Below are positions 1 through 38,334 of a stretch of DNA of 45,811 nucleotides, piece by piece. Position 1 is the stretch's first letter. Every line of letters starts with the position of its first letter. Both the position numbers and the translations under genes were made by a program. Origin of the DNA: Burkholderiales bacterium (lineage in GTDB: Bacteria > Pseudomonadota > Gammaproteobacteria > Burkholderiales > SG8-39); the NCBI GenBank assembly GCA_035251855.1, contig DATFDV010000295.1:1-45811 (forward strand), given 5' to 3'. The notes under the pieces are model-generated. The model was not told the DNA's origin. It saw only the letters and a list, made by a program, of their open reading frames with translations, and did not search any database.

Positions 1-141
1 ATGATCGCCAGCGCTCGTCAACAGCGTGGTCGAAGTCTCGGCGTAGAGATCGGAGAGGGCGATCCGGCATTCATGCGACGGCGTGGTGTCCTGGTAGGAA
101 ACCCACGCTTTACCGTCGGCCATCAACATGGCCGATTCGAG
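1..141. repeat. Terminal direct repeat, identical to 45671-45811 (assembly overlap of a circular or circularly permuted molecule)
   Basis: Read directly. Both copies run atgatcgccagcgctcgtcaacagcg ... catcaacatggccgattcgag. Confidence 0.95.
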
Positions 142-5918: not shown

Positions 5919-5934
5919 TGCTTTCCCTCAGCGG

Positions 5935-6585
5935 TTACGCGTACGCCATCCGGCGCTTGATCTGCACGATCGAGAAGCCCTGCGTCACGAGGTCCGCTAG
6001 CGGGATGTTCTCGGAGGGCAGCGACACGTAGCCGCGGAAGACGCGCGTCGAGTTGTCCGACATCGTGGCGCGGAAGCCGAGCGCCGTGCCAGAGCGCGAG
6101 GACGACTCGATCTTGATCATGCCGCTCGCGAAGACGTCCGAGAGCGCCTCGACCGCGACTTCCGGCGTCTCGTTCTGGCCGAGCACGAACGACTTGTCGG
6201 AGTCGATCAGCACGGTTGAGTCGAGCTTGTTGGGCGCGACGGTGCCGGCGTTGAGGCTGCGCGCCTTGCCGAGCGTGGACCAGGCGGTGATTTCCTTGGC
6301 GACGCTGCCGCCGCCGGAGGTGAAGGTGCCGAAGCCCGTGGTGTCGATGCCCTTGATCGACACGCTCACGCCCGAGACGCCGGTCGCCTTGGCGATCTGG
6401 CCCTCCAGCTCCACCATGCCGGTGATGCTCTCCAGCACGAAGATGTCGCCGTTCGCGATGCCGTGCGCCGAGGTGGCGAAGGTGATGACGCCCGGGTTCG
6501 CCTTGGAAATGGCGGTTATGCTCTTGCCCGAGGCGAGGGTTTTCTCGACTTCGACCCGGGTGTTGCGACCGATGAGTGTTGCCAT
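5935..6585 (-). CDS. Major tail (tube) protein
   Basis: 216 aa, beta-rich and Gly/Ser/Thr-rich. Canonical position upstream of the chaperones. Confidence 0.75.
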   Translation of the reverse strand: MATLIGRNTRVEVEKTLASGKSITAISKANPGVITFATSAHGIANGDIFVLESITGMVELEGQIAKATGVSGVSVSIKGIDTTGFGTFTSGGGSVAKEITAWSTLGKARSLNAGTVAPNKLDSTVLIDSDKSFVLGQNETPEVAVEALSDVFASGMIKIESSSRSGTALGFRATMSDNSTRVFRGYVSLPSENIPLADLVTQGFSIVQIKRRMAYA

Positions 6586-6613
6586 GGTAGTGGCCTCCTT
6601 TCAAGAAGACGTG

Positions 6614-6982
6614 TCAGAGTTCCCAGACTTCGAACAGCACGACCGCGGCGTAGCTCTGCGTCTCGGCATCGAAGCTGCCGTCGCGCGCGAGCGATACATA
6701 TCCGGCAGTCGCCATCGCAGTCACGCAGGCATCCGCCAACTGCTCCGCGGCCACCCTTGTGGCGGCCCAGCTCGTCACGTGGATCTGCACCTTGTTGCCG
6801 GCGAGCGTGTTGTCCAGCGTGTATTCCGGATCGGAGTCGCCGCGCTCGAAGACGATCAACGGCGGCGCCGCTTCCTGTGCGGCCTCGTCCGGGTAGATCT
6901 TCGCGGAAGCACCCGCGCCCACGATCGCCGTCACGGCGGCGGCCCCCACGAGCGCGTTATAGGTCAGCGTCTCGGCGCTCAT
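6614..6982 (-). CDS. DUF3168-like tail terminator/completion protein
   Basis: 122 aa. Position and general pattern (...IYPDEAAQEAAPPLIVFE...VQIHVTSWA...). Confidence 0.55.
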   Translation of the reverse strand: MSAETLTYNALVGAAAVTAIVGAGASAKIYPDEAAQEAAPPLIVFERGDSDPEYTLDNTLAGNKVQIHVTSWAATRVAAEQLADACVTAMATAGYVSLARDGSFDAETQSYAAVVLFEVWEL

Positions 6983-7548
6983 GGCTTACGCTGGTTCGCC
7001 TGGTCGATCCGAGTTTTGATCCGCGCCTGGAACACCGACAGCGCCTCGCCCTTGCCGCCCTCGAAGCCGTCGCGCATGAAGCGCAGGCCCGGGATCCGGC
7101 GCGCACTACCGCCCTTCACGCGCGCCTCGAGCCGCCCGGGCCGGGTGAAGCGCCCGCCGCCGACCCTGCGCCGGCCGACCGCGGTGAAGCCGAACTCCTG
7201 CCAAAACCAGTAGAACGGGTCGTTCGGGTTTTTAGCCCCCCGCCCGCCCGATGCCCGCAGCTTGGCCTTGCTCGCCCGCACCGCGACGAACACCCCCAGC
7301 GTGCCGTCGCGCCCGTTGTAGCGCTTGCTGGAAAAGACCTTGATGCTGCGCTTCAAGAGCCCCGGCGTGCGGTAGCGCGAGGGCGTCTTCAGTACCGGCG
7401 CCCGCTGCTTCGCCCGATTCACGATCGGCCGCGCGGCATCGCGCAGGGCGCCTCGCACCACGCGCTTGCGCATATCCTGCTTGAGCGCTTCCACCGCGAG
7501 CTTGAGGTCGGCCAGCCCCTCGATCCGCGTCGTGATGCCGTCGCTCAT
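6979..7548 (-). CDS. HK97 gp10-family head-tail protein
   Basis: Start trimmed to ATG 7548, which forms an ATGA overlap with the upstream stop. 189 aa; MSDGITTRIEGLADLKLAVEAL...RVVRGALRDAARPIVNRAKQRAPV resembles the gp10 family. Confidence 0.65.
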   Translation of the reverse strand: MSDGITTRIEGLADLKLAVEALKQDMRKRVVRGALRDAARPIVNRAKQRAPVLKTPSRYRTPGLLKRSIKVFSSKRYNGRDGTLGVFVAVRASKAKLRASGGRGAKNPNDPFYWFWQEFGFTAVGRRRVGGGRFTRPGRLEARVKGGSARRIPGLRFMRDGFEGGKGEALSVFQARIKTRIDQANQRKP

Positions 7549-7874
7549 GCCTCGATCACCCCTTCCGAGCAGTTGAGCGTCAACTCCACGTTTTCCAGGC
7601 GCCGGTCGATCGGCGGACCGATGATCGGGAAAATCCGCGTGCCGTACTTGACCCGCCACTCGGCCGCCACGTCCGCGCGGTGCCGGATGCGGATGCGCAC
7701 GGTCAGCTCCGGATGGATCTGCTGCGCCGCGAACAGCTCGCGCGCGGCAAGCGGCTCGATCGCGGCCCATACCTCCGCCTGGTCGGCCCAGGTGACGACT
7801 TCGCCCCCCATGGCGTCGCGCGTGACGCTCTTTTTCTGCAGCGTCACGAGCTTGTTCAGCTCCGAGGAGCGCAT
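7545..7874 (-). CDS. Head-tail joining (head closure) protein
   Basis: Start trimmed to ATG 7874 (ATGA overlap). 109 aa; MRSSELNKLVTLQKKSVTRDAMGGEVVTWADQAEVWAAIEPLAARE is typical of the family. Confidence 0.7.
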   Translation of the reverse strand: MRSSELNKLVTLQKKSVTRDAMGGEVVTWADQAEVWAAIEPLAARELFAAQQIHPELTVRIRIRHRADVAAEWRVKYGTRIFPIIGPPIDRRLENVELTLNCSEGVIEA

Positions 7875-8431
7875 CAGAAGCGATACAGGCAATAGGCGCG
7901 CATCAGGTTCTCCGCCGCCTGGATCAGCGTCGCCATCTGTTTTTCGTCGCGGTTGTGGTGCGCCTCGATGTGCAGCAGGCACGCATTCCTGATCTTCTCC
8001 GGCACCGCGGCGTGCAGCCCGTAGCCCGCGACGAAGCGGATCGTGACCGCGTTCATCTGGCTGCGGATCGAGGGCCAGGTCTTGCCGTAGGCTGGCGTCA
8101 CGCGCCCGGGCGAGGATTTCACGTCCACCAGATATTCGGACGAGGCGAGCGTCTGCTCCACGCCTTCGGTGTCCACGTACTTGATCGACGTGATCGAGGC
8201 GAGCGGCGGATAGGGGATCGCGATGCCCCAGCACGGAAAGGCGTCGAGAAAGTAGTCCCAGGTCTGCGTCACGAGCCGCCGGCCGGTGAAATCCTCCGCG
8301 TGCGCCGTCGCCGCGACGATGAGCGACTGAATCAACGCATCGAGCGCGGTCTCCGTTTCGCGCAGGTGCAGCTTCGCCTCCGCGAGGGTGACCGGCTCCT
8401 CGGCGGGCGCGGTGACGAGCTTGAGTGCCAT
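7874..8431 (-). CDS. gp6-like head-tail connector (adaptor) protein
   Basis: 185 aa. ...VTLAEAKLHLRETETALDALIQSLIVAATAHAEDFTGRRLVTQTW resembles the Phage_connect_1 family. Confidence 0.7.
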   Translation of the reverse strand: MALKLVTAPAEEPVTLAEAKLHLRETETALDALIQSLIVAATAHAEDFTGRRLVTQTWDYFLDAFPCWGIAIPYPPLASITSIKYVDTEGVEQTLASSEYLVDVKSSPGRVTPAYGKTWPSIRSQMNAVTIRFVAGYGLHAAVPEKIRNACLLHIEAHHNRDEKQMATLIQAAENLMRAYCLYRF

Positions 8432-8655
8432 CAGCCCTCCCCCGGCTCGCGTTCGTGCAGTTCGTATTCCTTGAGCACGGCGACCAACTGCCCAAGCTCG
8501 TCGACGCTCGGCGGCTGCGGGATGATCTCGGCTTTCACCAGCACCAATTCATTTATCTTGATCCGCAACTCAAACGCCCGGACGTTCGGCGGCAAGCCGA
8601 GCGCTTTCACCAGAGCCCGGACAAATTCGCAGTTCGCGCTCATTGCACCCATCAC
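8431..8655 (-). CDS. Hypothetical protein
   Basis: 74 aa. Translationally coupled on both sides. Confidence 0.5.
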   Translation of the reverse strand: MMGAMSANCEFVRALVKALGLPPNVRAFELRIKINELVLVKAEIIPQPPSVDELGQLVAVLKEYELHEREPGEG

Positions 8656-8948
8656 ATCGCCTTCGGACTCACCATGAACTCACCGTCCTCGACCGCCTGC
8701 ACCGCCCCGGTGCCGATGAAGCGGTAGTGCCACCAGCCGGCCTCGGTCACGCTGAGGTCGACGTGATAGTTGCCGGTCGAATCCTTGACCAGCGCCGCGT
8801 CGGTGAGATAGACGAGCGTCGTGGTCGTGCCCGAGGGCTTGGTGTACTTGAACGACACCGCCGTCGGATCGGTGGCGGTGCCGGCGTCGTTCTTGAATAC
8901 CGCCGTCACCCGCCGCAGATCGCCCACCTGGCACACGCCGATCGTCAT
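8652..8948 (-). CDS. Hypothetical beta-rich (Ig-like?) virion-module protein
   Basis: 98 aa. ...VTAVFKNDAGTATDPTAVSFKYTKPSGTTTTLVY...GNYHVDLSVTEAGWWHYRF. Confidence 0.55.
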   Translation of the reverse strand: MTIGVCQVGDLRRVTAVFKNDAGTATDPTAVSFKYTKPSGTTTTLVYLTDAALVKDSTGNYHVDLSVTEAGWWHYRFIGTGAVQAVEDGEFMVSPKAM

Positions 8949-8951
8949 CGT

Positions 8952-9851
8952 CTACCCCAGAGTGATGGAACCCAGCCCCGCATCCGCGACCGTCAGGTTC
9001 CCGCGCGCGGCGTCGGCGACGACCAACGTGCCAGGGGTCGTCGCGCCGCCAACAGACGGCACATGAAACTGCGCGCTGCTCACGAACAAGTCCGGCAACA
9101 GTGCATAGGTCGATGAAACCGACGGAGAGTAAAAGCTGTCTCCGTCCTCATACAGCGTTGCAGCAAGATCGTTGGTCGCCGCAACCGACGGACTGTAAAA
9201 CGTGTCTCCGTCGGTATAGAGCTCAGGTTCAAGAATCTGCGCTCCCACACTGACCGTGGGAGAGAAAAACGTGTCCGCATCAGCAAAGAGCGACGGAGCC
9301 AAATCCACCGCACCGGGGGCAACGGTCGCGGAAGGAAACACATCCGCATCGGTGTATAGCTCAGGCGTCAGACCGTAGCTCGCCGATACGGTCGCCGAAT
9401 GAAACGCCTGCGCGTCACTGAACAAATCCGGCGTCAAGGCATAAGTAGCGCTCGCCGTCGGAGAGAAGAAAGTATCTCCGTCCTCGTACAGAGCCGGGGA
9501 CAAACTGTAAGTCGCGCTGACCGTGGCATCGTAGAAGCTCGCCGCATTCGTGAAAAGCGACGGCTGCAGATCCTGCGGCCCGGCACTTTCCACCGTTGGA
9601 CTGTGGAAGGTGTCCGTGCTGTCGTCGAACAGTGCTGCCGTCAGCGCATAAGTAGCGCTTACCGTTGCATCGTGGAACGTGTCCGCATCTTCGTACAGCG
9701 ACGGCGTGAGTGCATAGGTCGCGCTGACCGTCGCCGCAAAAAACGTGTCGTCGTCAGTGTAAAGAGATGGCTCTAGATTGACCGCTACGACAGGCGGCGT
9801 CCCTTTCAGCGCAATCGGCTGGAAGGATTGCGACCTGCCAAGGCGAGCCAT
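8952..9851 (-). CDS. Ser/Thr-rich protein built from about 11 tandem ~22-aa repeats (L-x-P-x-L-[YF]-x-D-x-D-T-F-x-x-x-T-V-S-A-T-Y-A)
   Basis: 299 aa; the repeats are visible in the translation. ATG overlaps the stop of the upstream gene (TAATG). Confidence 0.7.
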   Translation of the reverse strand: MARLGRSQSFQPIALKGTPPVVAVNLEPSLYTDDDTFFAATVSATYALTPSLYEDADTFHDATVSATYALTAALFDDSTDTFHSPTVESAGPQDLQPSLFTNAASFYDATVSATYSLSPALYEDGDTFFSPTASATYALTPDLFSDAQAFHSATVSASYGLTPELYTDADVFPSATVAPGAVDLAPSLFADADTFFSPTVSVGAQILEPELYTDGDTFYSPSVAATNDLAATLYEDGDSFYSPSVSSTYALLPDLFVSSAQFHVPSVGGATTPGTLVVADAARGNLTVADAGLGSITLG

Positions 9852-11677
9852 TAGTATGAACTCGCTCTGCTGACAGCATGAGACACGTTATGCGTTGCGT
9901 TCGTGTGCTCGTAGTCGAACGCTATGCTGTTCGCGTAATTCGTTAGCAGCGTCTGGTTGCTGGCATCTCTCCAAGCGACCATAAAACGAGGCCCCGAGAG
10001 AGGCACCCACAACTGCCGCCAGTCTCCAAGACCTCCTGAGTACTGAACAGGTGACCCCCAACTGTCGCCGTGGTTAGTCGATTTCCTGTAATAGACGTGG
10101 GTCGCTACGCCCAGATCTTCGGTGCCGTCGTTTTTTCCGATGTAGACGGCGTAAAGATCGTCGGTAAGTAAGTCTATGAACAACCCCGAGTAATAGCAGT
10201 CGTCTACGTTGTCAGCGACGAACGCCTTAAGCTCGATATTCCCGGCGCCAATCGCCCTGACTTCGTAAACGTGGAAATCGCCGTTGGCGGTGTCGTACTC
10301 ACGATTTTTGGCCAGATACCCGTAGCCGGTCGTTTTGCTGATGGTGAATGAAAACGGGTACTGATAAGTGCCGTCCGTGGTGTTCGCCACGACAATCGTA
10401 GAATCCGGCCCCTCGGTGAAGGAATTACCTGAATCGTCGTATTCCTTGATCGTGACTTCGCTCGCGCTGCCATCCATATAGCCGAGCCACGCATCATTCG
10501 TGTCCGCAGTGGTTCCGGCCGGAGCAACAAGCACCAGATCAGTAGGCGATCCCGCGACCTCATAAGGATTGGTGCGGGCAGTCCAATTCACCCCGCCATC
10601 GGTTGATCTATAAAACCCGGTCTCATCCCCGCTGTCGCAGTCAAACGCACAGAGCAGATTGCCGCCTTTCATTTTTGCCCCGTTGACAAATCTTCCCGGG
10701 CCATCAGTGAAAGTTGCCCCAGCAAATACGACTCTCTGCGTTCCCAGCGTGTCGCCATTGGTGTCGAGCGTGCGAAAGAACACGTCATCGTTCGTGGTAT
10801 CGAAATACCACATGTAGATGAGTGTCCCGGAGTCATCCCCCGGTGTCCACTGGTCATACCAAACACCAGCCGCTACTACAGTCCCGATCAAAACCACTAC
10901 TACCGGATCGCCCCAAGTCTGCCCGCCGTCCGTGGTCTTGGTGTATTTGAAATCGAAGTCGTCATCAATGAAAAACTTGTATAAGATCGAGACGGTCGTA
11001 GCGACCAACCCCCTCCACACTCTCGCGGTTTGAGCTGCGACGATATGGTCGATAACAACGTCGCCGTTCGCCGTGAAGTCTGACGTGATAATTCGCGTGC
11101 CGGCAGACGATGAAGAACCAGTCCGAAACAAGATATCGCAAGTGGTCATCCCGCCCGCGCCCGTTCTCTCACATGCGATCTGAACGAACAGGTACTTATT
11201 GACGCAGGTAAAAGCGCCGGGATTTACCGTCAGCGTTGAATCGAAATCCGCAGACGTTGAAACGTCAGTTACTATCGATGCCTGCTGCTGTGCTGCGGTT
11301 ATCTCTGTATCAGCCCCTCCGTTGGCGTCCGCAAGGATGATGCGGAATCTAATCCTGACATCCTGTGTGTCTCCGACGCTAACCGCACGAACTACGAAGT
11401 GAAATTCCCAGTTACCGCTGGCAAACGACCCATTGAGCGGGAACGGACTTCTGAAAGCATCCTTGAGCGTTGCATCCAGAGTACCATCGGGAACAGTGGT
11501 TCCGGTAAAAGTTGACGCCGCTCTTTCAACGCCGCTGTTAAGTTCCGAGTGATTGGTAGATCCCGTGCCGACAGTCCAGCCGCTTGACGTTGTAGCCGCT
11601 GATTGTGCGGTCTCAGATAGCGCGGCCCAATTATTCTCGTTAAGCGAGTTGGTTAGATAGAAAGTTTTCGCGGCCAT
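9851..11677 (-). CDS. BNR/Asp-box repeat protein (sialidase-like beta-propeller C-terminal region)
   Basis: 608 aa. Three Asp-box motifs: TKTTDGGQTWG, RSTDGGVNWT, KSTNHGDSWG. Visibly lower GC than the flanks. Coupled to both neighbours (TAATG overlaps). Confidence 0.7.
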   Translation of the reverse strand: MAAKTFYLTNSLNENNWAALSETAQSAATTSSGWTVGTGSTNHSELNSGVERAASTFTGTTVPDGTLDATLKDAFRSPFPLNGSFASGNWEFHFVVRAVSVGDTQDVRIRFRIILADANGGADTEITAAQQQASIVTDVSTSADFDSTLTVNPGAFTCVNKYLFVQIACERTGAGGMTTCDILFRTGSSSSAGTRIITSDFTANGDVVIDHIVAAQTARVWRGLVATTVSILYKFFIDDDFDFKYTKTTDGGQTWGDPVVVVLIGTVVAAGVWYDQWTPGDDSGTLIYMWYFDTTNDDVFFRTLDTNGDTLGTQRVVFAGATFTDGPGRFVNGAKMKGGNLLCAFDCDSGDETGFYRSTDGGVNWTARTNPYEVAGSPTDLVLVAPAGTTADTNDAWLGYMDGSASEVTIKEYDDSGNSFTEGPDSTIVVANTTDGTYQYPFSFTISKTTGYGYLAKNREYDTANGDFHVYEVRAIGAGNIELKAFVADNVDDCYYSGLFIDLLTDDLYAVYIGKNDGTEDLGVATHVYYRKSTNHGDSWGSPVQYSGGLGDWRQLWVPLSGPRFMVAWRDASNQTLLTNYANSIAFDYEHTNATHNVSHAVSRASSY

Positions 11678-11865
11678 TATTCTTCTTCGTAGAACCGTTC
11701 AATGGGCGATCGAAATCCCTGAAACCAATAGCCCCACCTTCTCCAAAATGGCAGTTGATGCCACCACACCTCGTCCCATAACTGCGCGAGTTGCTGTTCC
11801 AGCAATTGCAGTCGCCGCTCTGGAGGGAGTTGAGGGCGCTCCTGAACCGGATGTCGCTCGGCCAT
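11677..11865 (-). CDS. Hypothetical Trp-rich small protein
   Basis: Start trimmed to ATG 11865 (TAATG overlap). 62 aa; ...LWDEVWWHQLPFWRRWGYWFQGF. Confidence 0.45.
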   Translation of the reverse strand: MAERHPVQERPQLPPERRLQLLEQQLAQLWDEVWWHQLPFWRRWGYWFQGFRSPIERFYEEE

Positions 11866-12335
11866 TAAATACGTTCTACGTCCATGGACGAACGCACATT
11901 GACCGTCGCAGGTGCCGTGCATCGAATCACCAGCCCCTCGGCCAAAGCCGTATCCGGCTCTTGACCGAGCGGAAACTGATAGGCGAACAGCCCTTTGTCC
12001 GGTGCCAGCAGAAACTCTTTGATTACGGTCAACGCCGTCGGCTCAGTCGTCCAGGTTTTCCCCGACGTAAACCCTGCCGTCAGCACCCGCCCATAAGTCT
12101 GACGCGGCGTTGTTGAAGTGGAATTTGTCCCCGGTGAATTGGTGGCAAATGTCGCGTAGCAAAATTCCACCAGCACCGGCACCGCGGAAGCCGTCACGCC
12201 ATCGAACGCGACCGCAAAACCTTTGCATTGGAGTCCAGAGTTCGCGTGCGCCTTGACGCCAATGATCGTTTTGGCAGTGGCAGCAGACAGCGCTACAGCA
12301 CCTTCGGTCGTGCAGGAGTACCCTGATGCGGACAT
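11865..12335 (-). CDS. Hypothetical protein (possible structural)
   Basis: 156 aa with natural composition, in the lower-GC block. Confidence 0.55.
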   Translation of the reverse strand: MSASGYSCTTEGAVALSAATAKTIIGVKAHANSGLQCKGFAVAFDGVTASAVPVLVEFCYATFATNSPGTNSTSTTPRQTYGRVLTAGFTSGKTWTTEPTALTVIKEFLLAPDKGLFAYQFPLGQEPDTALAEGLVIRCTAPATVNVRSSMDVERI

Positions 12336-12347
12336 CTGCTGCTCCTT

Positions 12348-12683
12348 TTAGTGCTTGATGCTCCGCAGGTCCATATGCGGAACTTCGATCTTTTGATGGA
12401 ACGGAAATACGTTGCGCCGATTGCCCAGCGCGTCGTAGTGCTGATCGAGCAGCAGGATGCGTACCTTCGCCACAAGCTGATCGAGCGCGTCCGCCGCGCC
12501 CTGCCGGGTTGAGTGCGACTGGCGAATCGCATTTACCAGCATATTGACTGCCGCCCCGACCACAGCCTCGTTCGGGAAGCCGTTGCACACGTTAGATAGC
12601 GCTCGGAATAGCTCCCGCTCGGCTTCCGGGCCGCTCTTGTGCAGCGGGTCTTTCTGGTTGCGTAGAGGATCGAGGCCGTTCAT
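12348..12683 (-). CDS. Hypothetical protein
   Basis: Start trimmed to ATG 12683 (ATGA overlap with the upstream stop). 111 aa. Confidence 0.5.
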   Translation of the reverse strand: MNGLDPLRNQKDPLHKSGPEAERELFRALSNVCNGFPNEAVVGAAVNMLVNAIRQSHSTRQGAADALDQLVAKVRILLLDQHYDALGNRRNVFPFHQKIEVPHMDLRSIKH

Positions 12684-13105
12684 AGAGTGAATATGCCTGA
12701 CGCATTCCACGTCACTGTGATGTCGCCTCCGTTCGGCGTGACAGGCAATCCCGTAACGCTGGTGTCGATGTAGGCGACCAGCCGCCACGTGGTATTAGCA
12801 CCCGAGTTGTGCCGGTAGATCCCCAGCGCTTCGACGCTCGCGCCACTTACTGCGGTGTAGGTGAGGTTCGCACCGTCGAACGTGCCGGCAGATACCGATC
12901 CAACCGTCGGGGCCGTGATGCGCTGATCGGTTCCGACAATGCCGGACAGGTCATTGTAGAAATCGTGCGCCGCGCTGTAGGTGTAGGTGCCCGTATCCAG
13001 CAGCGCGCAGAACGGCCCGTCGGTCGCATCGTCCACCGTCAGCGAGACGCTGGCCGACGCCGACATGAGAGCGGTCTTATAGATCGGATAGATTGCGTTT
13101 GCCAT
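12680..13105 (-). CDS. Hypothetical beta-rich protein (possible structural)
   Basis: 141 aa. MANAIYPIYKTALMSASASVSLTVDD...ITVTWNASGIFTL. Confidence 0.55.
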   Translation of the reverse strand: MANAIYPIYKTALMSASASVSLTVDDATDGPFCALLDTGTYTYSAAHDFYNDLSGIVGTDQRITAPTVGSVSAGTFDGANLTYTAVSGASVEALGIYRHNSGANTTWRLVAYIDTSVTGLPVTPNGGDITVTWNASGIFTL

Positions 13106-13116
13106 AGGTCTCTCCT

Positions 13117-14406
13117 TTACTTCGAATGGTCGTAGCGCGCTTCCATCTCGGCCGCACTCGGCAGCTTGTCGCGCGGCGTGCGGCGCACGATCGGCCGCTC
13201 GCCGGAATCGTCCACCGTGATGTGCTCCGCGTCGTAGCCGTAGAAGCGCTCCGCTTCGGGCACGTTGGCGTCGAGCAGCGTGGAGTTCTCGGCGACCTGA
13301 ATCATCATGCCGCGCGCCGAGGCGAAACCCAGCCAGAATTCCACGCAGCCGCGACCTTTCTCCCGCGAGTGGTGCCCGGCATAGGAGAAATCGATGCCAT
13401 AGAGCCCGAGACGCTTGACGCCCAAGAAGGAAGCGTGCGCGACCGCATAGGCGACGGTGGAGTTGAAGTAGGCATGGCCGAATTTCGCGATCAGATCCTC
13501 GATCGGAAACGGCACCGAGCCCGGGTATTTATCCGGATACGCCTTGCTGGTGTAGATGGGACCGGGATGTCCGCGCAGCAGCTCCAGCATGTGCTTGATG
13601 GTCTCGTTGCCGGCGGCGGCGCGGGCTTCCTGCACCATCAGGTCGTCCATGTGGAAAATGCGATCGCACCGGATGACCCCCGCCATGCAGTTGATCGCCC
13701 ACACCTCCTCATAGAGAGCGCGGGCGCCGCCGTGAACCCCCGCGGCCGCGACAAAGGTGGACTTGGAATCGCCCATGCCGACCAGCGCCACCGACTCCGG
13801 GACGCGGTCCATCGCGCGCGGAATCGGCGAGCGCACTGCTTCGATCAGGATAGTGCGGCCGTTTTCGCCGTAGACCACCGGCGCGGCGGTATCGGCTTGC
13901 GTGAAGCACTCGCGCGGACTGAAGCCGCGCTCGCGCAGCAGCGTTTCCAGCTCGACGCGGCGATAGTGCCGAAAATGGAACGCGATCTGCGGCCGGTACG
14001 GAAACACCGCTTCGTTCGGGACGCTGACGAAAAGGTGTTCGACGCACCCGCGCAGACGTTCGAGCACCTGGCCGGGATTGGGCACGTGCTCGATCGCCTC
14101 GAACACCACCGCAGCATCGTGAAAGCCCACCGCCATCTGCGCGGCATCGCCCACACCCCACACGATGGACGGATGGTCGAAGTGCTTGCGCGCGTGCGCG
14201 ATGGCCTCGGCGTTGACATCGAAGGCGGTGACGCGAAAGCCGGCATCCGCCAGAATCTTGGCGCCGTAGCCTACCCCGCACGCGACATCGACAACCGTCT
14301 TCGCCCCAAGCTGGCGGAGCCGGTCCGCGGCCCAGAGATAGCGGGCGGTGTGGTCGGCGCGGATGCCGTCAACGGTCTCGGCGACCTGTCGTTCTCCGGG
14401 CTGCAT
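13117..14406 (-). CDS. Fusion protein: N-terminal class I SAM-dependent methyltransferase plus a C-terminal DUF115/Maf-like (putative glycosyl/nonulosonate transferase-like) domain
   Basis: 429 aa. Motif I VVDVACGVGYG then AFDV. The C-terminal half has VALVGMGDS, EVWAINCMAGVIRCDRIFHMDD and NSTVAYAVAHASFLGVKRLGLYGIDFSY. The C-terminal domain assignment is from memory of the family pattern only. Confidence 0.65.
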   Translation of the reverse strand: MQPGERQVAETVDGIRADHTARYLWAADRLRQLGAKTVVDVACGVGYGAKILADAGFRVTAFDVNAEAIAHARKHFDHPSIVWGVGDAAQMAVGFHDAAVVFEAIEHVPNPGQVLERLRGCVEHLFVSVPNEAVFPYRPQIAFHFRHYRRVELETLLRERGFSPRECFTQADTAAPVVYGENGRTILIEAVRSPIPRAMDRVPESVALVGMGDSKSTFVAAAGVHGGARALYEEVWAINCMAGVIRCDRIFHMDDLMVQEARAAAGNETIKHMLELLRGHPGPIYTSKAYPDKYPGSVPFPIEDLIAKFGHAYFNSTVAYAVAHASFLGVKRLGLYGIDFSYAGHHSREKGRGCVEFWLGFASARGMMIQVAENSTLLDANVPEAERFYGYDAEHITVDDSGERPIVRRTPRDKLPSAAEMEARYDHSK

Positions 14407-14409
14407 GCG

Positions 14410-14646
14410 CTATTTCCCCTTGCCAGGCGCTGCACTTTTGGAGCCGGCCGCGGCCGTTTCCTCCGGCGGGCGCGTCGCGGTCTCGCGGCGAGCGGCCGCA
14501 ACCGGTGACGCTTTCACGGGATCGACGGCGACGGCGTAGCCGCCGGCAACGAGTGCCGCGCCCGTCTCGTTATCGACCGTGACGGTGTCACCTGGCCCAC
14601 CGCTCAATGTCGGGCCGGCGAGGATGGTTCTGAGTTTGACTTGCAT
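14410..14646 (-). CDS. Hypothetical small head-module protein
   Basis: Start trimmed to ATG 14646, preceded by AAGGAG. 78 aa; MQVKLRTILAGPTLSGGPGDTVTVDNETGAALVAGGYAVAV. Confidence 0.55.
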   Translation of the reverse strand: MQVKLRTILAGPTLSGGPGDTVTVDNETGAALVAGGYAVAVDPVKASPVAAARRETATRPPEETAAAGSKSAAPGKGK

Positions 14647-14656
14647 CGGAGACTCC

Positions 14657-15019
14657 TTAGCCGACCACGACGTGGATCGTGCCTTGCTTGGTATTGCCGC
14701 CAGCGACCACGTCAACCTTCACGCGCTCGCCCGCTACCACCACGTCGCGCACGACCCCGGTCACCACGCCGCCGGTGGCGGTGTGTGCCGGCTGCGTCGG
14801 CGCGTTGGTGAAATCCGCGGCGACATTCGCCTTGGAGAGGATGGCGGCCCCGGTCTCCGCGGCGGTGATGGTGAAGTCCGCGGTGCTCGCAAGCGCCACC
14901 GCCGCGGTCGCCTTGATGTAGCGGATGGCGGCGATGCGGCCGGTCACCGGCGGCGTGTAAGCGGTCGCCCCGCCGCCGGTGGCGGTGACGAAGGTGACGG
15001 TATGGCGTTCGGCGTACAT
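14657..15019 (-). CDS. Hypothetical beta-rich protein
   Basis: 120 aa, in the operon downstream of the capsid gene. Confidence 0.5.
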   Translation of the reverse strand: MYAERHTVTFVTATGGGATAYTPPVTGRIAAIRYIKATAAVALASTADFTITAAETGAAILSKANVAADFTNAPTQPAHTATGGVVTGVVRDVVVAGERVKVDVVAGGNTKQGTIHVVVG

Positions 15020-15026
15020 GGCCCGC

Positions 15027-15251
15027 TCAACCCGTCGCCAGAATGCCGACGTTGGTCAGCGCCGCGCGCATCGCCTCGATCTTCGCGGCAATGCCGGTGC
15101 TGAACGTGCCGGTCGCGGTGATCGCCGCGATCGCGGCCGCCTGCGAGAGCACGCCGCTCGAGGAGCACTTCTGGATCTTGCCACCGGCTTTCACGGCCAT
15201 GGCGTCGCCGCCCTGTACCATGAAGACTTTGGTGCCGTAGGTATTGCTCAT
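15027..15251 (-). CDS. Hypothetical small protein
   Basis: 74 aa. MSNTYGTKVFMVQGGDAMAVKAGGKIQK... Confidence 0.5.
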   Translation of the reverse strand: MSNTYGTKVFMVQGGDAMAVKAGGKIQKCSSSGVLSQAAAIAAITATGTFSTGIAAKIEAMRAALTNVGILATG

Positions 15252-15327
15252 GACCTGCCCTCCGCAAAGATCGGATCAAAAAAATGGGGCGAATCCGCCC
15301 CATTCCCAACGATGACGCTCGCGTGGA

Positions 15328-15756
15328 CTATGCGACCGGCGAGACGCGCGGCGAGTGCAGCACCGCGCTCGATCCGACGATGGTCGCCGCCGTGACGGTG
15401 GCCTTGTGGGTGAGCGAGACGTAGCGCTTGTTGCCCTTGTAGCCGATCTTCTTGCTGACGTTCTTGCTCACGCCGGAGACGTGCGGCGTGCCGGCGGCGA
15501 GGCCGGCATCGGCTTCGGTGCCCAGCAGGTCGGTATCAGCCACCGAAGCAAGCGAGCCGGTGGCGCTGCCCTCCTTGACGATGACGCTGAACACAGAATC
15601 CGTCGCCGTGCGGGTGCCGTAGTTGATGACGAACTCGACGCCGTGGTAGCCGTGGCGGTCGATCACCTTGCCGGCCTGGCCGGCCGCCGTCGTGTTGAGC
15701 GCAGCGGGCGCACGCACGACTTGAATCTTCGCGTTGTTGTGCAGATCCTGTTCCAT
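15328..15756 (-). CDS. Hypothetical protein (possible head decoration, by position only)
   Basis: 142 aa, immediately downstream of the major capsid gene. Confidence 0.5.
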   Translation of the reverse strand: MEQDLHNNAKIQVVRAPAALNTTAAGQAGKVIDRHGYHGVEFVINYGTRTATDSVFSVIVKEGSATGSLASVADTDLLGTEADAGLAAGTPHVSGVSKNVSKKIGYKGNKRYVSLTHKATVTAATIVGSSAVLHSPRVSPVA

Positions 15757-15834
15757 GACAGATATCTCCTTTCGGTTTCGGAAAAGATGCCGGGGCGAGA
15801 CCCTCCGCCCCGGCCTTGGTTGGGGTCGCGGGCG

Positions 15835-17190
15835 TTAGGCCAGCTTCACCCGCACGAACGCTTCGGCGAGCGTGGGCATGCCGTCGCTTTCCATGCGGCC
15901 GATGAAGCCGACCTGGTTGGTCTCGGCGTAGAGCTCCACGAGGCGCTGGAACTGCATGTCGAGCGCATCGCAGATCCAGTAATGCGAGAAGTCCGCGAAC
16001 ATGCCGACATAGAGTCCAGTGGTGAAGGTGTTGGGCACGTATTCGCTCATGCTGAGCGGACGCCCCAGGATGGTGTCTGGTTCGCCTTCGCGCACCGACT
16101 GCCTCCAGAGGTACTGGCCTTCGCCGTCCTTCAGCTTCGCGATCTGCTTCAGCGCGTCGCGGTGGAACAGCCATTCCGCGCGGCTCCAGTACTGGCCTTT
16201 CAGCGCGTACTTGGCGTTTATCAAGCCGTCGAAAGTCACCTGGGTCGTCAGGTTATCGGTGGACACGTCGCGCGAGGTCGGCACGCCCGAGGCGCTGGCG
16301 GTGAACAGGCCCAGCGGCTGGCCGGCGCCGTTGCCGGTCAGGAATGCCTTCTCGTGGGTGATGCCGAACTTGTAGGCGAGCCGCGAGGTCACCAGGCCCT
16401 CGACCCCGGACACGGTGCGGAGCAGCTTGTTTGAGACCTTGATGCGCTTCGCGACCGGCGCGGGCTTCAGCTCGCGGCGGCCGAACGCCATGGTGCTGTC
16501 TTCGCTGCCGGTGCCAAGCTCTGTGGTCCAGTCCGCATCGGCCGGGTCGGCATCGAGCGAAGGCGCGCCCATCGCCTGCGATGACGTGACCGTGAACTTG
16601 GTCGCCTTCATGCGAATGAAGGTCTCATCGTCCACCGCCTGAATCAGACGGTTGACGAATTCAAGCGGCGGCGCCATATAGCCGCCGGCCGGGTCGGAAC
16701 CCAACTGCAGGGCGCGGCGCTCGTCGGCATTCAACTCCGCGTAGCCGCTGCGCATGAAATGATCGAGGGCGCGCAGCACCACTTCCTTGTCACGCGCGCC
16801 CGGCAAGCCGCGTTCGGCTTCCCGTTCGGTCTCGCGGCGCTCGAGATCGCTCGCGGCGGCGGCACGCTCGGCCTCCTGGAGCTGCTCTTCGCGCTTGATC
16901 TGGTCGGCGACCTTACCCTGCTCGTCGATCAGCTTGTCGAACGCTTTCTGCTCATCGTCCGTCAGGGCGCGCTTATTGTCGGCCTCCGCCTTGTCGAGGA
17001 TTGCGCGCGCATCGGCCACGAGCTGGCCGCGCTTGTCGCGCAGCCCCTTCAGCGTGACGGCCGCCGCCGGCGCAAGAAGGATATCGACCACCATCCGCGG
17101 ATCCACATAAGCCGCCAGCACCTCGGGCGCCACCGTTGCGGCCAGCACGGCGATCACCACCACAGCGAACAGCAGGGCGTTCGATTTCAT
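15835..17190 (-). CDS. Major capsid protein, HK97 family
   Basis: Start trimmed to ATG 17190, preceded by GGAGGT. The track ORF extends into the protease gene. 451 aa with a coiled-coil delta-like region (...DDEQKAFDKLIDEQGKVADQIKREEQLQEAE) followed by the HK97-like body. Confidence 0.85.
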   Translation of the reverse strand: MKSNALLFAVVVIAVLAATVAPEVLAAYVDPRMVVDILLAPAAAVTLKGLRDKRGQLVADARAILDKAEADNKRALTDDEQKAFDKLIDEQGKVADQIKREEQLQEAERAAAASDLERRETEREAERGLPGARDKEVVLRALDHFMRSGYAELNADERRALQLGSDPAGGYMAPPLEFVNRLIQAVDDETFIRMKATKFTVTSSQAMGAPSLDADPADADWTTELGTGSEDSTMAFGRRELKPAPVAKRIKVSNKLLRTVSGVEGLVTSRLAYKFGITHEKAFLTGNGAGQPLGLFTASASGVPTSRDVSTDNLTTQVTFDGLINAKYALKGQYWSRAEWLFHRDALKQIAKLKDGEGQYLWRQSVREGEPDTILGRPLSMSEYVPNTFTTGLYVGMFADFSHYWICDALDMQFQRLVELYAETNQVGFIGRMESDGMPTLAEAFVRVKLA

Positions 17191-17282
17191 CGCGTTACCT
17201 CCATGAATGAGCCGGGGGGTGAACTTCGCCGCATCGGTCACGCCCCCGGCGTGCCGTGACGGTGGCGGCGAAACTGGGATGG

Positions 17283-17915
17283 TTATCGGGCTTCGGCCTC
17301 GAGCAGCGCGAGGCGGAGCCGCCGCTGGCGCGCGGCAATGATTGCCGCGGCGCGGCAATCGGCGGCGTTCTGCGTCTGCGTGCGCCGCGTCTCCAGGGTG
17401 CGCAGCGCGACGTCGGTGGTCGGGAAAGCGGGAAAGGTCACCGGCGAGACGTCGAAGAGCTCCACTTCGAGCAGCGTACGCAGCGGGATTTCCTCGCTTT
17501 CGTCCCATTCTTCCCGCATCATCTTGAAGCCGAAGCTCATCTGGGACACGTCGCCGCGGGCCACCGGTGCCAGCACCAGGTCGCGCACGAGCTGGGTGTC
17601 GGGCGGGCTGATGTCGATCGCGAGCCCGACGGCGTCTTCCGACAGGCGCAGCGTGCCGGCGCGGTTGCGGCCGAGCACCCAATCTTCGTCGTGGTTGAAA
17701 AGCGCGCGCACATCGTCCTCCGCGATCGCGCGGCGGAAGGCCCCGGGTGCTATGCGCTCGCGGAACCAGCGGCCGATCTTCACCGTCTGGTTGAACACGG
17801 CGGCATGCCCCATCAGCCGCGCGCCGCCCTCGGCGCGGGTTTCGACGCGCATGGCGTCGGCGGTGAAGGTGCGCCGCTCCAGGTCGGGCGCAGAAGCGCG
17901 GTTCTCGCGTGGCAT
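17283..17915 (-). CDS. HK97-family prohead protease
   Basis: 210 aa. ...LMGHAAVFNQ...ERIAPGAFRRAI...VRALFNHDEDWVLGR resembles the family. Confidence 0.8.
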   Translation of the reverse strand: MPRENRASAPDLERRTFTADAMRVETRAEGGARLMGHAAVFNQTVKIGRWFRERIAPGAFRRAIAEDDVRALFNHDEDWVLGRNRAGTLRLSEDAVGLAIDISPPDTQLVRDLVLAPVARGDVSQMSFGFKMMREEWDESEEIPLRTLLEVELFDVSPVTFPAFPTTDVALRTLETRRTQTQNAADCRAAAIIAARQRRLRLALLEAEAR

Positions 17916-17918
17916 GGT

Positions 17919-30872: not shown

Positions 30873-30910
30873 TCATTCAACCATTCAGCCATTTTTTTCG
30901 GGAGACATCC

Positions 30911-34669: not shown

Positions 34670-34704
34670 CGATTCAACCATTCAGTCATTTTTAGGGGAT
34701 TCGC

Positions 34705-35184: not shown

Positions 35185-35221
35185 CCATTCAGTAATTCAG
35201 CTATTTAGGTCTTTTCTCAGC

Positions 35222-38137: not shown

Positions 38138-38334
38138 GCGTCTGCCTCTCACCGGTCGAACTGACGGCGCTGACCGGAAAGGTTCGCCCACACGCCCAGG
38201 CGCGGGTGCTCGACGCGCTCGTCATTCCGTACCGCAAGCGCCCCGACAACTCGCTTATCGTTTTCCGCTACCATGTCACGCCTGATGCGCCCCCGCAAGA
38301 AAGATCGGCATCTCCCGTCCTGCATCTACCATAG
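38134..38334 (+). CDS. DUF4224-like small protein (excisionase-position gene)
   Basis: 66 aa. ...LSPVELTALTGKVRPHAQARVLDALVIPYRKRPDNSLIV. Directly upstream of, and overlapping, int. Confidence 0.55.
   Translation: MSVCLSPVELTALTGKVRPHAQARVLDALVIPYRKRPDNSLIVFRYHVTPDAPPQERSASPVLHLP

What the first reader, a model, noticed from the sequence alone, without database searches (positions are those of the whole stretch)
8431..15756. About 7.4 kb block of 13 co-oriented, translationally coupled genes inserted between the capsid gene and the head-tail connector genes
In HK97-type phages the connector genes usually follow the capsid gene within one or two small ORFs. Here 13 ORFs intervene, with no recognisable head or tail function for most of them. 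They include a methyltransferase/Maf-like fusion, a BNR/Asp-box protein, a Ser/Thr-rich tandem-repeat protein and several beta-rich proteins. Most junctions are ATGA, TAATG or GTGA overlaps, so the block is expressed with the late structural operon. The sub-block at about 9.85-12.7 kb is visibly more A/T-rich than the rest, which indicates mosaic acquisition. One hypothesis is that this is a virion surface decoration or glycan-modification module.
Basis: partly seen in the sequence, partly recalled or inferred. Interest (0 to 1): 0.7.

Follow-up and report, generated by a model that had tools for sequence, protein, structure and literature searches.

The report
Capsid-accessory enzyme cassette plus inserted fibre module
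The 7.4 kb between the capsid and neck genes of this complete temperate phage holds a widespread but unstudied pair (a small capsid-accessory protein and a methyltransferase fused to a sugar-transferase-like domain) plus a horizontally acquired set of fibre-like genes, which makes enzymatic modification of the phage surface a testable idea rather than a shown fact.

Summary
Thirteen tightly packed minus-strand ORFs (8431-15756) lie between the HK97-type capsid gene and the gp6-like connector gene, and GC3 falls from 0.83-0.94 to 0.55-0.75 in part of the block.

The block is not one insertion. It has three parts.

1. MCP -> b01 -> b04 -> connector is a conserved head-gene order. b01 is a 142-aa predicted jelly-roll. 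b04 is a SAM methyltransferase fused to an MptE-like/GT42-like domain. This order appears in 21 of 22 genome loci from at least seven phyla and in 42 of 66 viral contigs. b01 and b04 are about 50% identical across these loci, while the capsid protein is only about 27% identical.

2. b05-b10 (8952-13105) is lower-GC cargo. It starts exactly at the b04 stop codon, where a 79%-identical relative diverges. It encodes a homologue of the mycobacteriophage Bxb1 "tail wing arm", a modular Asp-box propeller protein, and an 11 x 22-aa repeat protein. The b05...b10 pairing recurs in 50 of 81 viral contigs.

3. The rest are small ORFs, one of them DUF7302.

"Maf-like" is supported only at superfamily level. 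The propeller family has no invariant arginine, so it is not a canonical sialidase. Virion glycan modification is plausible but unproven.

The parts
15789..15814 (-). Terminator-like or attenuator hairpin between the MCP stop (15835) and the b01 start (15756)
   Evidence: 10-bp stem with 9 G-C pairs, followed by a T-rich tail.
15328..15756 (-). b01: 142-aa capsid-adjacent accessory protein with a predicted jelly-roll fold (cement- or decoration-like)
   Evidence: phrog_5707, E = 1e-21. AF2 model pLDDT 84.8. Foldseek hits are jelly-rolls, including the BPP-1 cement protein 3j4u_H (TM 0.45, 20% identity). It lies directly after the MCP in phage Cd, in ppBeUSDA76-1 and in 72 of 80 IMG/VR loci.
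15027..15251 (-). b01b: 74-aa small ORF
   Evidence: GC3 0.88. Conserved in L010, and 39% identical to phage Cd gp35, which follows the b01 homologue there.
14657..15019 (-). b02: 120-aa beta-rich protein, no family match
   Evidence: 70% identical in L010 and 45% in L003. No Pfam, PHROG or NCBIfam hit.
14410..14646 (-). b03: 78-aa DUF7302 protein
   Evidence: PF23976, E = 5e-6. phrog_748, annotated 'head-tail connector protein', E = 1e-5.
13822..14406 (-). b04 N-terminal domain: class I SAM-dependent methyltransferase (residues 1 to about 195)
   Evidence: PF13489 E = 1e-12 and PF08241 E = 4e-11. The motif D40-x-x-C43-G44-x-G46-Y47-G48 and D63 are nearly invariant in 40 homologues.
13117..13821 (-). 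b04 C-terminal domain: MptE-like / GT42-like Rossmann-type domain (residues about 196-429)
   Evidence: PF01973 matches 32 of 40 homologues, best E = 2.4e-6. AF2 pLDDT 86. Foldseek hits: SteA, CstII and CstI sialyltransferases, MptE HPPK (probability 0.96-1.0, TM 0.37-0.47). The domain occurs alone in 12 genome loci. There are 329 cluster representatives at E <= 1e-30.
13120..13121 (.). Mosaic breakpoint
   Evidence: The blastn alignment of L010 92-6228 to window 19272-13121 (78.6% identity) stops at the b04 stop codon. No similarity is detected downstream of it.
12680..13105 (-). b05: 141-aa homologue of the mycobacteriophage Bxb1 gp31 'tail wing arm' (phrog_644)
   Evidence: PDB 9d93, E = 1.1e-5. 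phrog_644, E = 5e-18. 182 phage records match, annotated as minor tail protein. 125 IMG/VR loci encode a relative; the 80 kept are 55-87% identical.
12348..12683 (-). b06: 111-aa helical protein, frequent partner of b05
   Evidence: Follows b05 in 20 of 81 loci. ATGA overlap with b05. No family hit.
11865..12335 (-). b07: 156-aa beta-rich protein
   Evidence: 65-81% identical in 6 viral contigs. It lies next to a b05-like gene after the MCP in L105, and directly after the tape measure gene in L106. No PDB, Pfam or PHROG match.
11677..11865 (-). b08: about 62-aa Trp-rich protein (the ORF extends to 11922), obligate upstream partner of the b09 N-domain
   Evidence: 42-67% identical and directly upstream of b09-N homologues in L017, L021 and L022.
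9851..11677 (-). b09: 608-aa modular protein. It has a conserved N-terminal domain (1-204) and a BNR/Asp-box beta-propeller (about 206-587)
   Evidence: The N-domain is 45-69% identical to the N-termini of about 50 proteins of 337-1040 aa. The propeller is 41-49% identical to proteins in which it is N-terminal. BNR_2 matches 7 of 11 homologues. There are three Asp-boxes. No invariant Arg.
8952..9851 (-). b10: 299-aa protein with 11 copies of an approximately 22-aa repeat (L.P.LY.D.DTF..ATVSATYA)
   Evidence: Repeat map and 24% Ser+Thr. b10-type repeats lie 1-4 kb from b05 in 50 of 81 viral loci and in cyanophage Pam2 gene 68.
8652..8948 (-). b11: 98-aa beta-rich protein with native GC3 (0.91)
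   Evidence: phrog_17896 (unknown function), E = 6e-5. 39% identical to an ORF near b07 in L104.
8431..8655 (-). b12: 74-aa ORF with a GTG start, overlapping both neighbours
   Evidence: No family hit.
7874..8431 (-). gp6-like head-tail connector/adaptor (lower boundary of the block)
   Evidence: PF05135, E = 4e-7. phrog_442, E = 2e-27.

Best explanation
The interval is the head-accessory stretch of the late operon of a complete, circular 45.7-kb temperate HK97-type siphophage. It is a composite of three parts.

(1) A conserved head cassette, shown by comparative genomics. The order is MCP, then b01 (a small jelly-roll capsid-accessory protein), then b04 (a SAM methyltransferase fused to an MptE-like/GT42-like domain), then the gp6-like connector. 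I infer that b04 is a late-expressed enzyme that post-translationally modifies an exposed capsid protein. The most likely target is its constant neighbour b01, otherwise the MCP. The proposed chemistry is transfer of a nucleotide-activated (possibly CMP-activated) sugar by the C-domain and methylation by the N-domain. This would give the capsid a chemically modified surface.

(2) A 4.2-kb lower-GC cargo, b05-b10, recombined in exactly at the b04 stop codon. I infer that it encodes an accessory virion appendage made of an 'arm' adaptor (b05, a Bxb1 gp31 homologue), a helper (b06), b07, the b08/b09 pair (a conserved N-terminal anchor carrying a swappable Asp-box propeller that probably binds or cleaves a glycan), and a repeat fibre (b10).

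(3) Small head and neck ORFs: b01b, b02, b03 (DUF7302), b11 and b12.

All of these are read through from the MCP gene past an attenuating hairpin.
For: Gene order and junctions.

The cassette:
- A b01 homologue (35-55% identical) lies immediately upstream of a b04 or b04-C homologue (38-52% identical) and downstream of an MCP that is only 23-32% identical. This holds in 21 of 22 genome loci from Alpha- and Betaproteobacteria, Armatimonadota, Planctomycetota, Acidobacteriota, Bacteroidota and Desulfuromonadales.
- In the reverse direction, 42 of 66 IMG/VR loci with a b01 homologue carry the C-domain within 3 kb downstream. Of these, 24 also have the MT domain, and the connector usually comes next.
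- The C-domain is the constant partner. It stands alone in 12 genome loci.
- The MT and the MptE-like protein are separate adjacent genes in L002.

Fold and family of the b04 C-domain. It has 47 invariant positions, mostly polar or Gly, including H57, D59, D144, H151, E154, R157, C159 and E161.

b01 jelly-roll fold and the BPP-1 cement-protein hit.

Glycan-enzyme neighbours in the same interval of related phages:
- Sulfotransfer_2, E = 1.5e-26.
- GT9, TylF and CmcI.
- MT plus radical SAM.

The cargo:
- Breakpoint and GC3 values.
- b05 matches Bxb1 gp31, E = 1.1e-5. gp31 is a virion protein of a non-essential tail-tip wing (PMC12646305).
- b05...b10 co-occur in 50 of 81 loci.
- b08/b09-N pairing and b09 modularity.

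Phage-encoded virion glycosylation has a precedent in mycobacteriophages (cited in PMC12582341).
Against: - No direct evidence exists that any product is modified or is in the virion.
- The window's own C-domain does not reach Pfam significance. All PF01973 hits are weak.
- Foldseek E-values are only 2e-3 to 2e-2 and TM-scores are below 0.5. The fold class also includes a pyrophosphokinase (MptE) and a non-enzymatic regulator (SteA).
- No Maf structure appears among the hits.
- No nucleotide-sugar biosynthesis gene was seen in the parts of the genome that were annotated.
- 24 of 66 b01 loci lack the enzyme, as do cultured phages Cd and ppBeUSDA76-1. So b01 does not need b04.
- In L011 and L121 an MptE-like gene sits after the connector or head-closure gene, not next to b01.
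- The b01 profile is not significantly similar to Bbp16 (hhalign E = 0.55).
- b05 homologues in cultured phages lie in tail-fibre clusters. The attachment site of the appendage here is unknown.
Confidence: 0.45

Rival explanations
1. b05-b10 are ordinary side or tail-tip fibres (a Bxb1-like 'wing') that happen to be encoded in the head-neck interval. They have nothing to do with the capsid or with b04.
For: - b05 matches the Bxb1 tail wing arm.
- Its homologues in Corndog-like phages, Octadecabacter virus BD1 and cyanophage Pam2 lie in tail-fibre clusters.
- b07 follows the tape measure gene in L106.
- b09 has the conserved-N, variable-C architecture typical of receptor-binding proteins.
Against: - No homologue of the Bxb1 gp30 'wing base' (a D-Ala-D-Ala carboxypeptidase) is present in the block.
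- In 10 of 12 viral loci where a head or neck marker of this lineage is detectable, the b05/b10 module lies within about 3 kb of the MCP or connector.
- In podophage-like contigs it sits between the capsid and adaptor genes.
Confidence: 0.3
2. b04 is not a glycosyltransferase. Its MptE-like domain is a kinase or pyrophosphokinase-type module, or a purely nucleotide-binding or regulatory module as in SteA, with a role in head assembly or maturation or in small-molecule metabolism. The methyltransferase acts on a protein residue or on a metabolite.
For: - PF01973 is named after a pyrophosphokinase.
- The best Foldseek hit is SteA, and M. jannaschii HPPK (8sd5) scores as well as CstII.
- The only sequence-level link to a sialyltransferase is a 35-residue motif at E = 0.7.
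- The CstII carboxylate-binding Arg aligns with Thr in the b04 family (my reading of the alignment).
Against: - The gene is fixed between a capsid accessory gene and the connector gene in dozens of unrelated phages.
- Carbohydrate-modifying enzymes recur in the same position in relatives.
- The G-x-D-F-x-Y motif resembles the CMP-binding segment of CstII.
Confidence: 0.15
3. The enzymes and propeller are morons acting on the host cell rather than on the virion. Possible roles are lysogenic conversion, superinfection exclusion, or modification of flagellin, LPS or capsule. They would merely be parked in a permissive recombination hot spot.
For: - The MCP-connector interval is demonstrably a hot spot with variable cargo.
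- GC3 indicates recent acquisition.
- Maf-type enzymes normally modify flagellin (background knowledge).
Against: - No promoter-like site was found, and the genes are packed in the late operon.
- The b04-b01 linkage is far tighter than expected for a moron.
- b05 has a structurally verified virion homologue.
- No membrane or secretion signal was noted in b04.
Confidence: 0.1

Closest known systems
Phage-encoded virion glycosylation in mycobacteriophages (Che8, Corndog, Myrna; Freeman et al. 2023, cited in PMC12582341)
   Same: Sugar-modifying enzymes encoded by the phage itself, including methyltransferases, are proposed here (and shown there) to decorate capsid and tail proteins.
   Different: Those systems use conventional glycosyltransferases in actinophages. 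Here the candidate is an MptE-like/GT42-like domain fused to a class I MT, fixed next to a jelly-roll capsid accessory gene in phages of Gram-negative and other diderm hosts. No modification has been shown. I could not read the primary paper.
Maf flagellin nonulosonic-acid glycosyltransferases (PF01973 family) and GT42 sialyltransferases CstI/CstII
   Same: The same Pfam superfamily signal and the same Rossmann-type fold class. A shared Y-F-N...G-I-D-F-(x)-Y segment. Maf enzymes act on exposed Ser/Thr of a polymeric surface protein, which is the action proposed here.
   Different: The b04 domain has only about 230 residues, without the Maf N- and C-terminal domains. No Maf structure was among the hits. 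Scores lie below the Pfam gathering threshold. The acceptor and the donor are unknown.
Bordetella phage BPP-1 cement protein (Bbp16, PDB 3j4u chain H)
   Same: A jelly-roll protein of about 140 aa encoded directly after the MCP gene. Foldseek TM 0.45, with the highest identity in the hit list (20%).
   Different: No Pfam Bbp16 hit, and hhalign E = 0.55 against a Bbp16 member. Generic jelly-rolls (Eph, MAM, CBM22) score higher.
Mycobacteriophage Bxb1 tail wing (gp30 base, gp31 arm, gp33 brush)
   Same: b05 is a sequence homologue of gp31 (E = 1.1e-5, about 100 residues). The wing is a non-essential accessory appendage.
   Different: No gp30 homologue is present here. The partners (b06-b10) are different proteins. 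The module sits in the head-neck interval rather than at the end of the tail genes.
BNR/Asp-box beta-propellers (GH33 sialidases, GH74, Ycf48)
   Same: Three Asp-box motifs (S/T-x-D-G-G-x-T-W) and BNR_2 profile hits in homologues.
   Different: There is no invariant or near-invariant arginine, so the sialidase Arg triad is not conserved. PDB matches are confined to the Asp-box motifs.

Membership tests
Class I SAM-dependent methyltransferase (b04 N-domain) | Rossmann MT profile match above threshold, with a glycine-rich SAM motif I and an acidic residue after beta-2 | tested here: met
   PF13489 48.6 bits (cut-off 27) and PF08241 43.7 bits (cut-off 21.2). D40, C43, G44, G46, G48 and D63 are at least 90% conserved.
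Maf flagellin glycosyltransferase / PF01973 MptE-like (b04 C-domain) | Significant PF01973 profile match | tested here: inconclusive
   The window protein has no hit at E <= 0.01. 32 of 40 homologues hit at E <= 0.1, best 2.4e-6. The family cut-off is 34.6 bits. Bit scores for these 32 hits were not returned, so it is unknown whether any reaches that cut-off.
Maf flagellin glycosyltransferase / PF01973 MptE-like (b04 C-domain) | Multi-domain Maf architecture (central transferase domain flanked by N- and C-terminal helical domains, about 600 aa or more) and structural similarity to a solved Maf | tested here: not met
   The domain is about 230 aa and occurs alone as proteins of about 230-260 aa. 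No Maf entry appears among the 8 profile hits or the 50 Foldseek hits listed. The architecture of Maf itself is taken from memory.
Maf flagellin glycosyltransferase / PF01973 MptE-like (b04 C-domain) | Genomic linkage to a flagellin acceptor and to CMP-nonulosonate biosynthesis genes | tested here: not met
   The gene is flanked by phage head genes in all loci examined. No such genes were found among the window ORFs that were scanned. Not every ORF of the genome was scanned.
GT42 sialyltransferase (CstII-like) | Fold similarity plus the CMP-binding segment and a catalytic His | tested here: inconclusive
   Foldseek probability 0.96-0.98, TM 0.41-0.47, E = 4e-3. A 35-residue motif match at E = 0.7. 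Invariant His is present (H252, H346), but its equivalence to CstII His188 was not established.
BPP-1-type jelly-roll cement protein (Bbp16, PF21190) for b01 | Sequence or profile membership | tested here: not met
   No Pfam hit. hhalign against a Bbp16 member gives E = 0.55.
BPP-1-type jelly-roll cement protein (Bbp16, PF21190) for b01 | Jelly-roll fold, about 140 aa, gene directly after the MCP gene | tested here: met
   AF2 model with seven predicted beta-strands. 3j4u_H TM 0.45. Position after the MCP in 72 of 80 loci.
BPP-1-type jelly-roll cement protein (Bbp16, PF21190) for b01 | Binds the capsid exterior | not testable with these tools
   Needs virion proteomics or cryo-EM.
Bxb1 tail wing module (b05) | Sequence homology to gp31, the wing arm | tested here: met
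   PDB 9d93 chain Ra, E = 1.1e-5, residues 39-138 aligned to 5-103.
Bxb1 tail wing module (b05) | An adjacent wing-base protein (gp30-like D-Ala-D-Ala carboxypeptidase) to which the arm docks | tested here: not met
   No peptidase profile in any block protein. It is present next to the b05 homologue in the Corndog-like phage Blessica.
GH33 sialidase (b09 C-domain) | Asp-box repeats in a six-bladed propeller | tested here: met
   Three Asp-box motifs are invariant (K24/T26/G29/W32; S135/G139/W142; S310/W317). BNR_2 matches 7 of 11 homologues. The number of blades was not tested.
GH33 sialidase (b09 C-domain) | Conserved arginine triad (RIP motif) and Tyr/Glu nucleophile pair | tested here: not met
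   No arginine appears among the invariant or >=90% conserved columns of the 11-sequence alignment.
   Only b03 (DUF7302/phrog_748), b01 (phrog_5707, unknown function) and b05 (phrog_644, unknown function) match any family. b01b (NCBIfam only), b02, b06, b07, b08, b10 and b12 match none, and b11 only a PHROG of unknown function.

The most novel reading that the evidence does not exclude
The b01 + MptE-like/GT42-like (+/- methyltransferase) pair is a previously unrecognised, cross-phylum capsid-surface modification system of HK97-type phages. In this reading a Maf/sialyltransferase-like enzyme O-glycosylates a jelly-roll cement protein, possibly with a CMP-activated acidic sugar such as Kdo or a nonulosonic acid that diderm hosts supply. 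The fused MT then methylates the product. In this phage a horizontally acquired appendage with an Asp-box propeller would add a second glycan-directed function to the particle.
Probability: 0.25. Interest if true: 0.8.

Novelty: new variant of a known kind. Interest (0 to 1): 0.6.

Why it matters
Enzymatic modification of phage particles is known from only a few systems, yet it affects immune recognition, stability and host interaction.

Here a single enzyme family is locked next to a capsid accessory gene in phages of at least seven bacterial phyla. The family has 329 sequence-cluster representatives at E <= 1e-30 and 1790 at E <= 1e-10. It has never been studied and is absent from cultured-phage databases except for two partial matches (E 5e-19 and 2e-6).

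If it modifies the capsid, it would extend virion glycosylation or methylation to a large fraction of temperate phages of soil and aquatic bacteria. It would also give a simple two-gene system (b01 + b04) to test.

The b05-b10 module shows that a structural element first seen on a mycobacteriophage tail tip belongs to a very widespread, mobile appendage cassette.

If the reading is false, the region is still a clear example of a recombination hot spot between capsid and connector genes.

Tried and rejected
- Megablast of 7800-17300 against 50,697 phage records gave no match.
- tblastn of b09 against phages gave none. b04 gave only two partial hits, and b10 hit only cyanophage Pam2.
- A single-sequence scan of IMG/VR for b04 found nothing. 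The alignment-based genome scan succeeded.
- PDB sequence searches were empty or uninformative for b09 as a single sequence, b01 as a profile, b07 and b10.
- NCBIfam gave nothing for any block protein except generic MT hits.
- The b01 profile was not significantly similar to Bbp16, so b01 is not filed as a Bbp16 member.
- Tandem Repeats Finder found no DNA repeat in b10; the repeats are degenerate and visible only at protein level.
- I tested whether the phage's diversity-generating retroelement targets the block. It does not: its repeats lie at 30.7-35.9 kb.
- A canonical sialidase was rejected for b09 because no arginine is conserved.
- 'One 7.4-kb insertion' was rejected because b01 and b04 are part of a conserved head-gene order.
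- The primary papers on virion glycosylation and on the Bxb1 structure are not in the library. They are cited only through papers that cite them.

Full report
**1. What is in the sequence**

The window is a complete circular phage genome. Bases 1-141 repeat exactly at 45671-45811. The tail genes run off the start of the window and continue at its end: the baseplate hub at 1329-2381 and the Phage-tail_3/Rcc01698_C host-specificity protein at 43136-45799, both on the minus strand.

The late genes are on the minus strand, in this order:
- small and large terminase;
- portal 17919-19232;
- S78 protease 17283-17915;
- HK97-type MCP 15835-17190;
- the block;
- gp6-like connector 7874-8431 (PF05135, phrog_442);
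- head closure 7545-7874 (PF05521);
- HK97 gp10-like 6979-7548;
- tail completion, major tail, chaperones and tape measure.

Thirteen ORFs fill 8431-15756. Six of the 13 junctions are 1- or 4-nt overlaps and five are gaps of 3-12 nt. No sigma-70-like promoter occurs in 5500-18000. A strong hairpin (15789-15814) follows the MCP gene.

GC3 is 0.83-0.94 in b01, b01b, b02, b04, b11 and the flanking head and neck genes (b03 0.73, b12 0.79). It is 0.75, 0.74, 0.62, 0.55, 0.61 and 0.68 in b05-b10.

**2. The block is not one insertion: MCP-b01-b04-connector is a conserved order**

b01 (142 aa, phrog_5707) lies directly after the MCP gene in Azospirillum phage Cd and in Bradyrhizobium phage ppBeUSDA76-1. 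In ppBeUSDA76-1 the connector follows immediately.

b04 (429 aa) has hundreds of full-length homologues at 45-50% identity.

A scan of one genome per species returned 22 loci with the full protein or its C-terminal half. In 21 of them the gene is preceded by a b01 homologue (35-55% identical), which is itself preceded by an MCP only 23-32% identical to the window's. The 22nd contig is too short to tell. Hosts include Rhodoplanes, Mesorhizobium, Azorhizobium, Variovorax, Sterolibacterium, Armatimonadota, Phycisphaerales, Terriglobia, Flavobacteriaceae and Desulfuromonadales.

Starting instead from b01, 66 IMG/VR loci have at least 900 nt downstream of the b01 gene. Of these, 42 carry the b04 C-domain within 3 kb, usually abutting, and 24 of those also have the MT domain. 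The connector gene typically comes next.

The accessory protein and the enzyme are thus much better conserved than the capsid protein they accompany, and they travel together. In the window, b01b, b02 and b03 sit between them. All three are also present in the 80-86%-identical relative L010.

**3. What b04 and b01 are**

The b04 N-domain is a class I SAM methyltransferase with intact motifs.

The b04 C-domain (about residues 196-429):
- It gives no Pfam hit in the window protein itself. PF01973 (MptE-like, the family that contains Maf) matches 32 of 40 homologues, best E = 2.4e-6.
- A C-domain profile finds only Campylobacter CstII/CstI sialyltransferases in the PDB, at E about 0.7, through a Y-F-N...G-I-D-F motif.
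- An AlphaFold2 model (pLDDT 86) matches SteA, CstII/CstI and archaeal MptE HPPK. Foldseek probabilities are high (0.96-1.0), but E-values are modest (2e-3 to 2e-2) and TM-scores are 0.37-0.47.
- Forty-seven columns are invariant in 22 sequences, many of them His, Asp, Glu, Arg or Cys. This pattern points to an enzyme.
- The domain exists alone in 12 genome loci. In L002 the MT and the MptE-like protein are adjacent separate genes.
- The family has 329 cluster representatives at E <= 1e-30 and 1790 at E <= 1e-10 among 1.84 billion.

'Maf-like' is therefore right only at superfamily level. The Maf architecture and a match to a Maf structure are both missing.

The b01 model (pLDDT 84.8) is a jelly-roll. 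The listed Foldseek hits include the 140-aa cement protein of Bordetella phage BPP-1 (3j4u_H, TM 0.45, 20% identity, the highest in the list). Generic jelly-rolls score higher, and profile comparison with a Bbp16 member is not significant. I read b01 as a capsid-accessory (cement- or decoration-like) protein. This rests on fold and position and is an inference.

**4. The lower-GC cargo b05-b10**

A single 6.2-kb blastn alignment (78.6% identity) between L010 and the window ends at 13121, the b04 stop codon. Beyond it the two genomes share nothing detectable. This breakpoint coincides with the GC3 drop.

- **b05** (phrog_644) matches PDB 9d93 'Tail wing arm, gp31' of mycobacteriophage Bxb1 (E = 1.1e-5). 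In Bxb1, gp30 (base), gp31 (arm) and gp33 (brush) form a non-essential tail-tip wing (PMC12646305). b05 relatives are encoded at 125 IMG/VR loci, and the 80 kept are 55-87% identical.
- **b05, b06 and b10 together.** Of 81 viral loci with b05, 50 also encode a b10-type repeat protein 1-4 kb away, and 20 have b06 directly after b05. Cyanophage Pam2 has the same b05...b10 pairing.
- **b09** is a two-module protein. Residues 1-204 are 45-69% identical to the N-termini of about 50 proteins of 337-1040 aa. Such genes were preceded by a b08-like small gene in all three contexts examined (L017, L021, L022, the last two podophage-like). Residues 206-587 form a BNR/Asp-box propeller that is N-terminal in other proteins. 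BNR_2 matches 7 of 11 homologues, and three Asp-boxes are invariant. No arginine is conserved, so a canonical sialidase is unlikely.
- **b10** has 11 copies of an approximately 22-aa unit and is 24% Ser+Thr.
- **b07** recurs in six viral contigs. In one it follows an MCP and a b05-like gene, and in another it follows the tape measure gene.

I infer an accessory appendage made of an adaptor, a helper, a modular glycan-directed head domain and a repeat fibre.

Its attachment site is open. Cultured-phage homologues are in tail-fibre clusters. However, in 10 of 12 viral loci with recognisable head or neck markers the module lies within about 3 kb of the MCP or connector. In podophage-like contigs it sits between the capsid and adaptor genes.

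**5. Context that bears on the glycan hypothesis**

The MCP-connector interval varies from 0.85 to 4.5 kb in phages with 48-59% identical MCPs. In relatives the same position carries:
- in L002, a Sulfotransfer_2 enzyme (E = 1.5e-26), an MT and an MptE-like protein;
- in L001, a Laminin_G_3 lectin-fold protein;
- in L121, GT9, TylF and CmcI-type sugar O-methyltransferases just upstream of a b05-b10 module, and an MptE-like gene after head closure;
- in L114, an MT and a radical SAM/SPASM enzyme.

This recurrent company makes carbohydrate chemistry on virion proteins the most economical reading. It also has a precedent in mycobacteriophages (cited in PMC12582341). It remains an inference, because no donor pathway, acceptor site or modified product has been observed.

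**6. Verdict**

The finding is real and interesting, but it should be re-described as follows:
- a conserved, uncharacterised capsid-accessory and enzyme cassette (b01 + b04);
- a mobile appendage module (b05-b10) inserted at a hot spot;
- small head and neck ORFs.

The 'single inserted block', 'Maf' and, by implication, 'sialidase' elements are not.

Novelty: a new variant of a known kind, namely phage-encoded virion modification and accessory fibres.

Confidence in the composite explanation is 0.45, and in the specific glycosylation chemistry about 0.25.

Noticed in passing
window 1-141 and 45671-45811: An exact 141-nt terminal direct repeat. The contig is a circular assembly, so the window is a complete genome of about 45,670 bp. 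The tail genes wrap from the window start to 43136-45799.
   Followed up: partly
window 30735-30896, 34522-34693, 35037-35208, 35714-35885; RT at 35575-36945 (+): A diversity-generating retroelement. It has a reverse transcriptase (RVT_1, E = 3e-16) and a four-copy repeat family. The copy at 35714-35885 is AAC-rich. By my visual reading of the sequences printed, it differs from the 34522 copy at adenines. This would make it one template repeat with up to three variable repeats, which is an unusually high number of targets. None lies in the block.
   Followed up: partly
window 15789-15814 (-): A strong GC-rich hairpin with a T-rich tail lies immediately after the major capsid gene. It is probably an attenuator that sets the MCP-to-downstream stoichiometry.
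   Followed up: no
L011 2873-3592; L121 9412-9984: MptE-like domain proteins also occur after the gp6-like connector or head-closure gene. In L011 the protein is 73% identical to the b04 C-domain. So the enzyme is not always adjacent to b01.
   Followed up: partly
window 9851-11677 (b09) versus database gene call P0121: The public gene call for this ORF starts at residue 224 (385 aa). It drops an N-terminal domain that is 45-69% identical to about 50 other proteins, so the call is probably truncated.
   Followed up: yes
window 11677-11922 (b08): A small Trp-rich protein (LWDEVWWHQLPFWRRWGYWFQGF) was found with the b09 N-domain in all three unrelated contigs examined (L017, and podophage-like L021 and L022). 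Its role is unknown. It could be a chaperone, a membrane-active peptide or an anchor.
   Followed up: partly
window 36942-37952 (+), 32383-34137 (+), 38273-39271 (+): DUF5131 (phage Gp37/Gp68-like), a ParB-like protein and a tyrosine integrase. These are consistent with a temperate lifestyle. No tRNA genes were found.
   Followed up: no
L023 and L024 (Rhodoplanes elegans NZ_NHSK01000074.1, 35-56 kb and 98-119 kb): Two loci on one scaffold gave identical tblastn coordinates and identities for the terminase, portal, MCP, b01 and b04 matches. This suggests a duplicated prophage, or two closely related prophages, in one genome.
   Followed up: no
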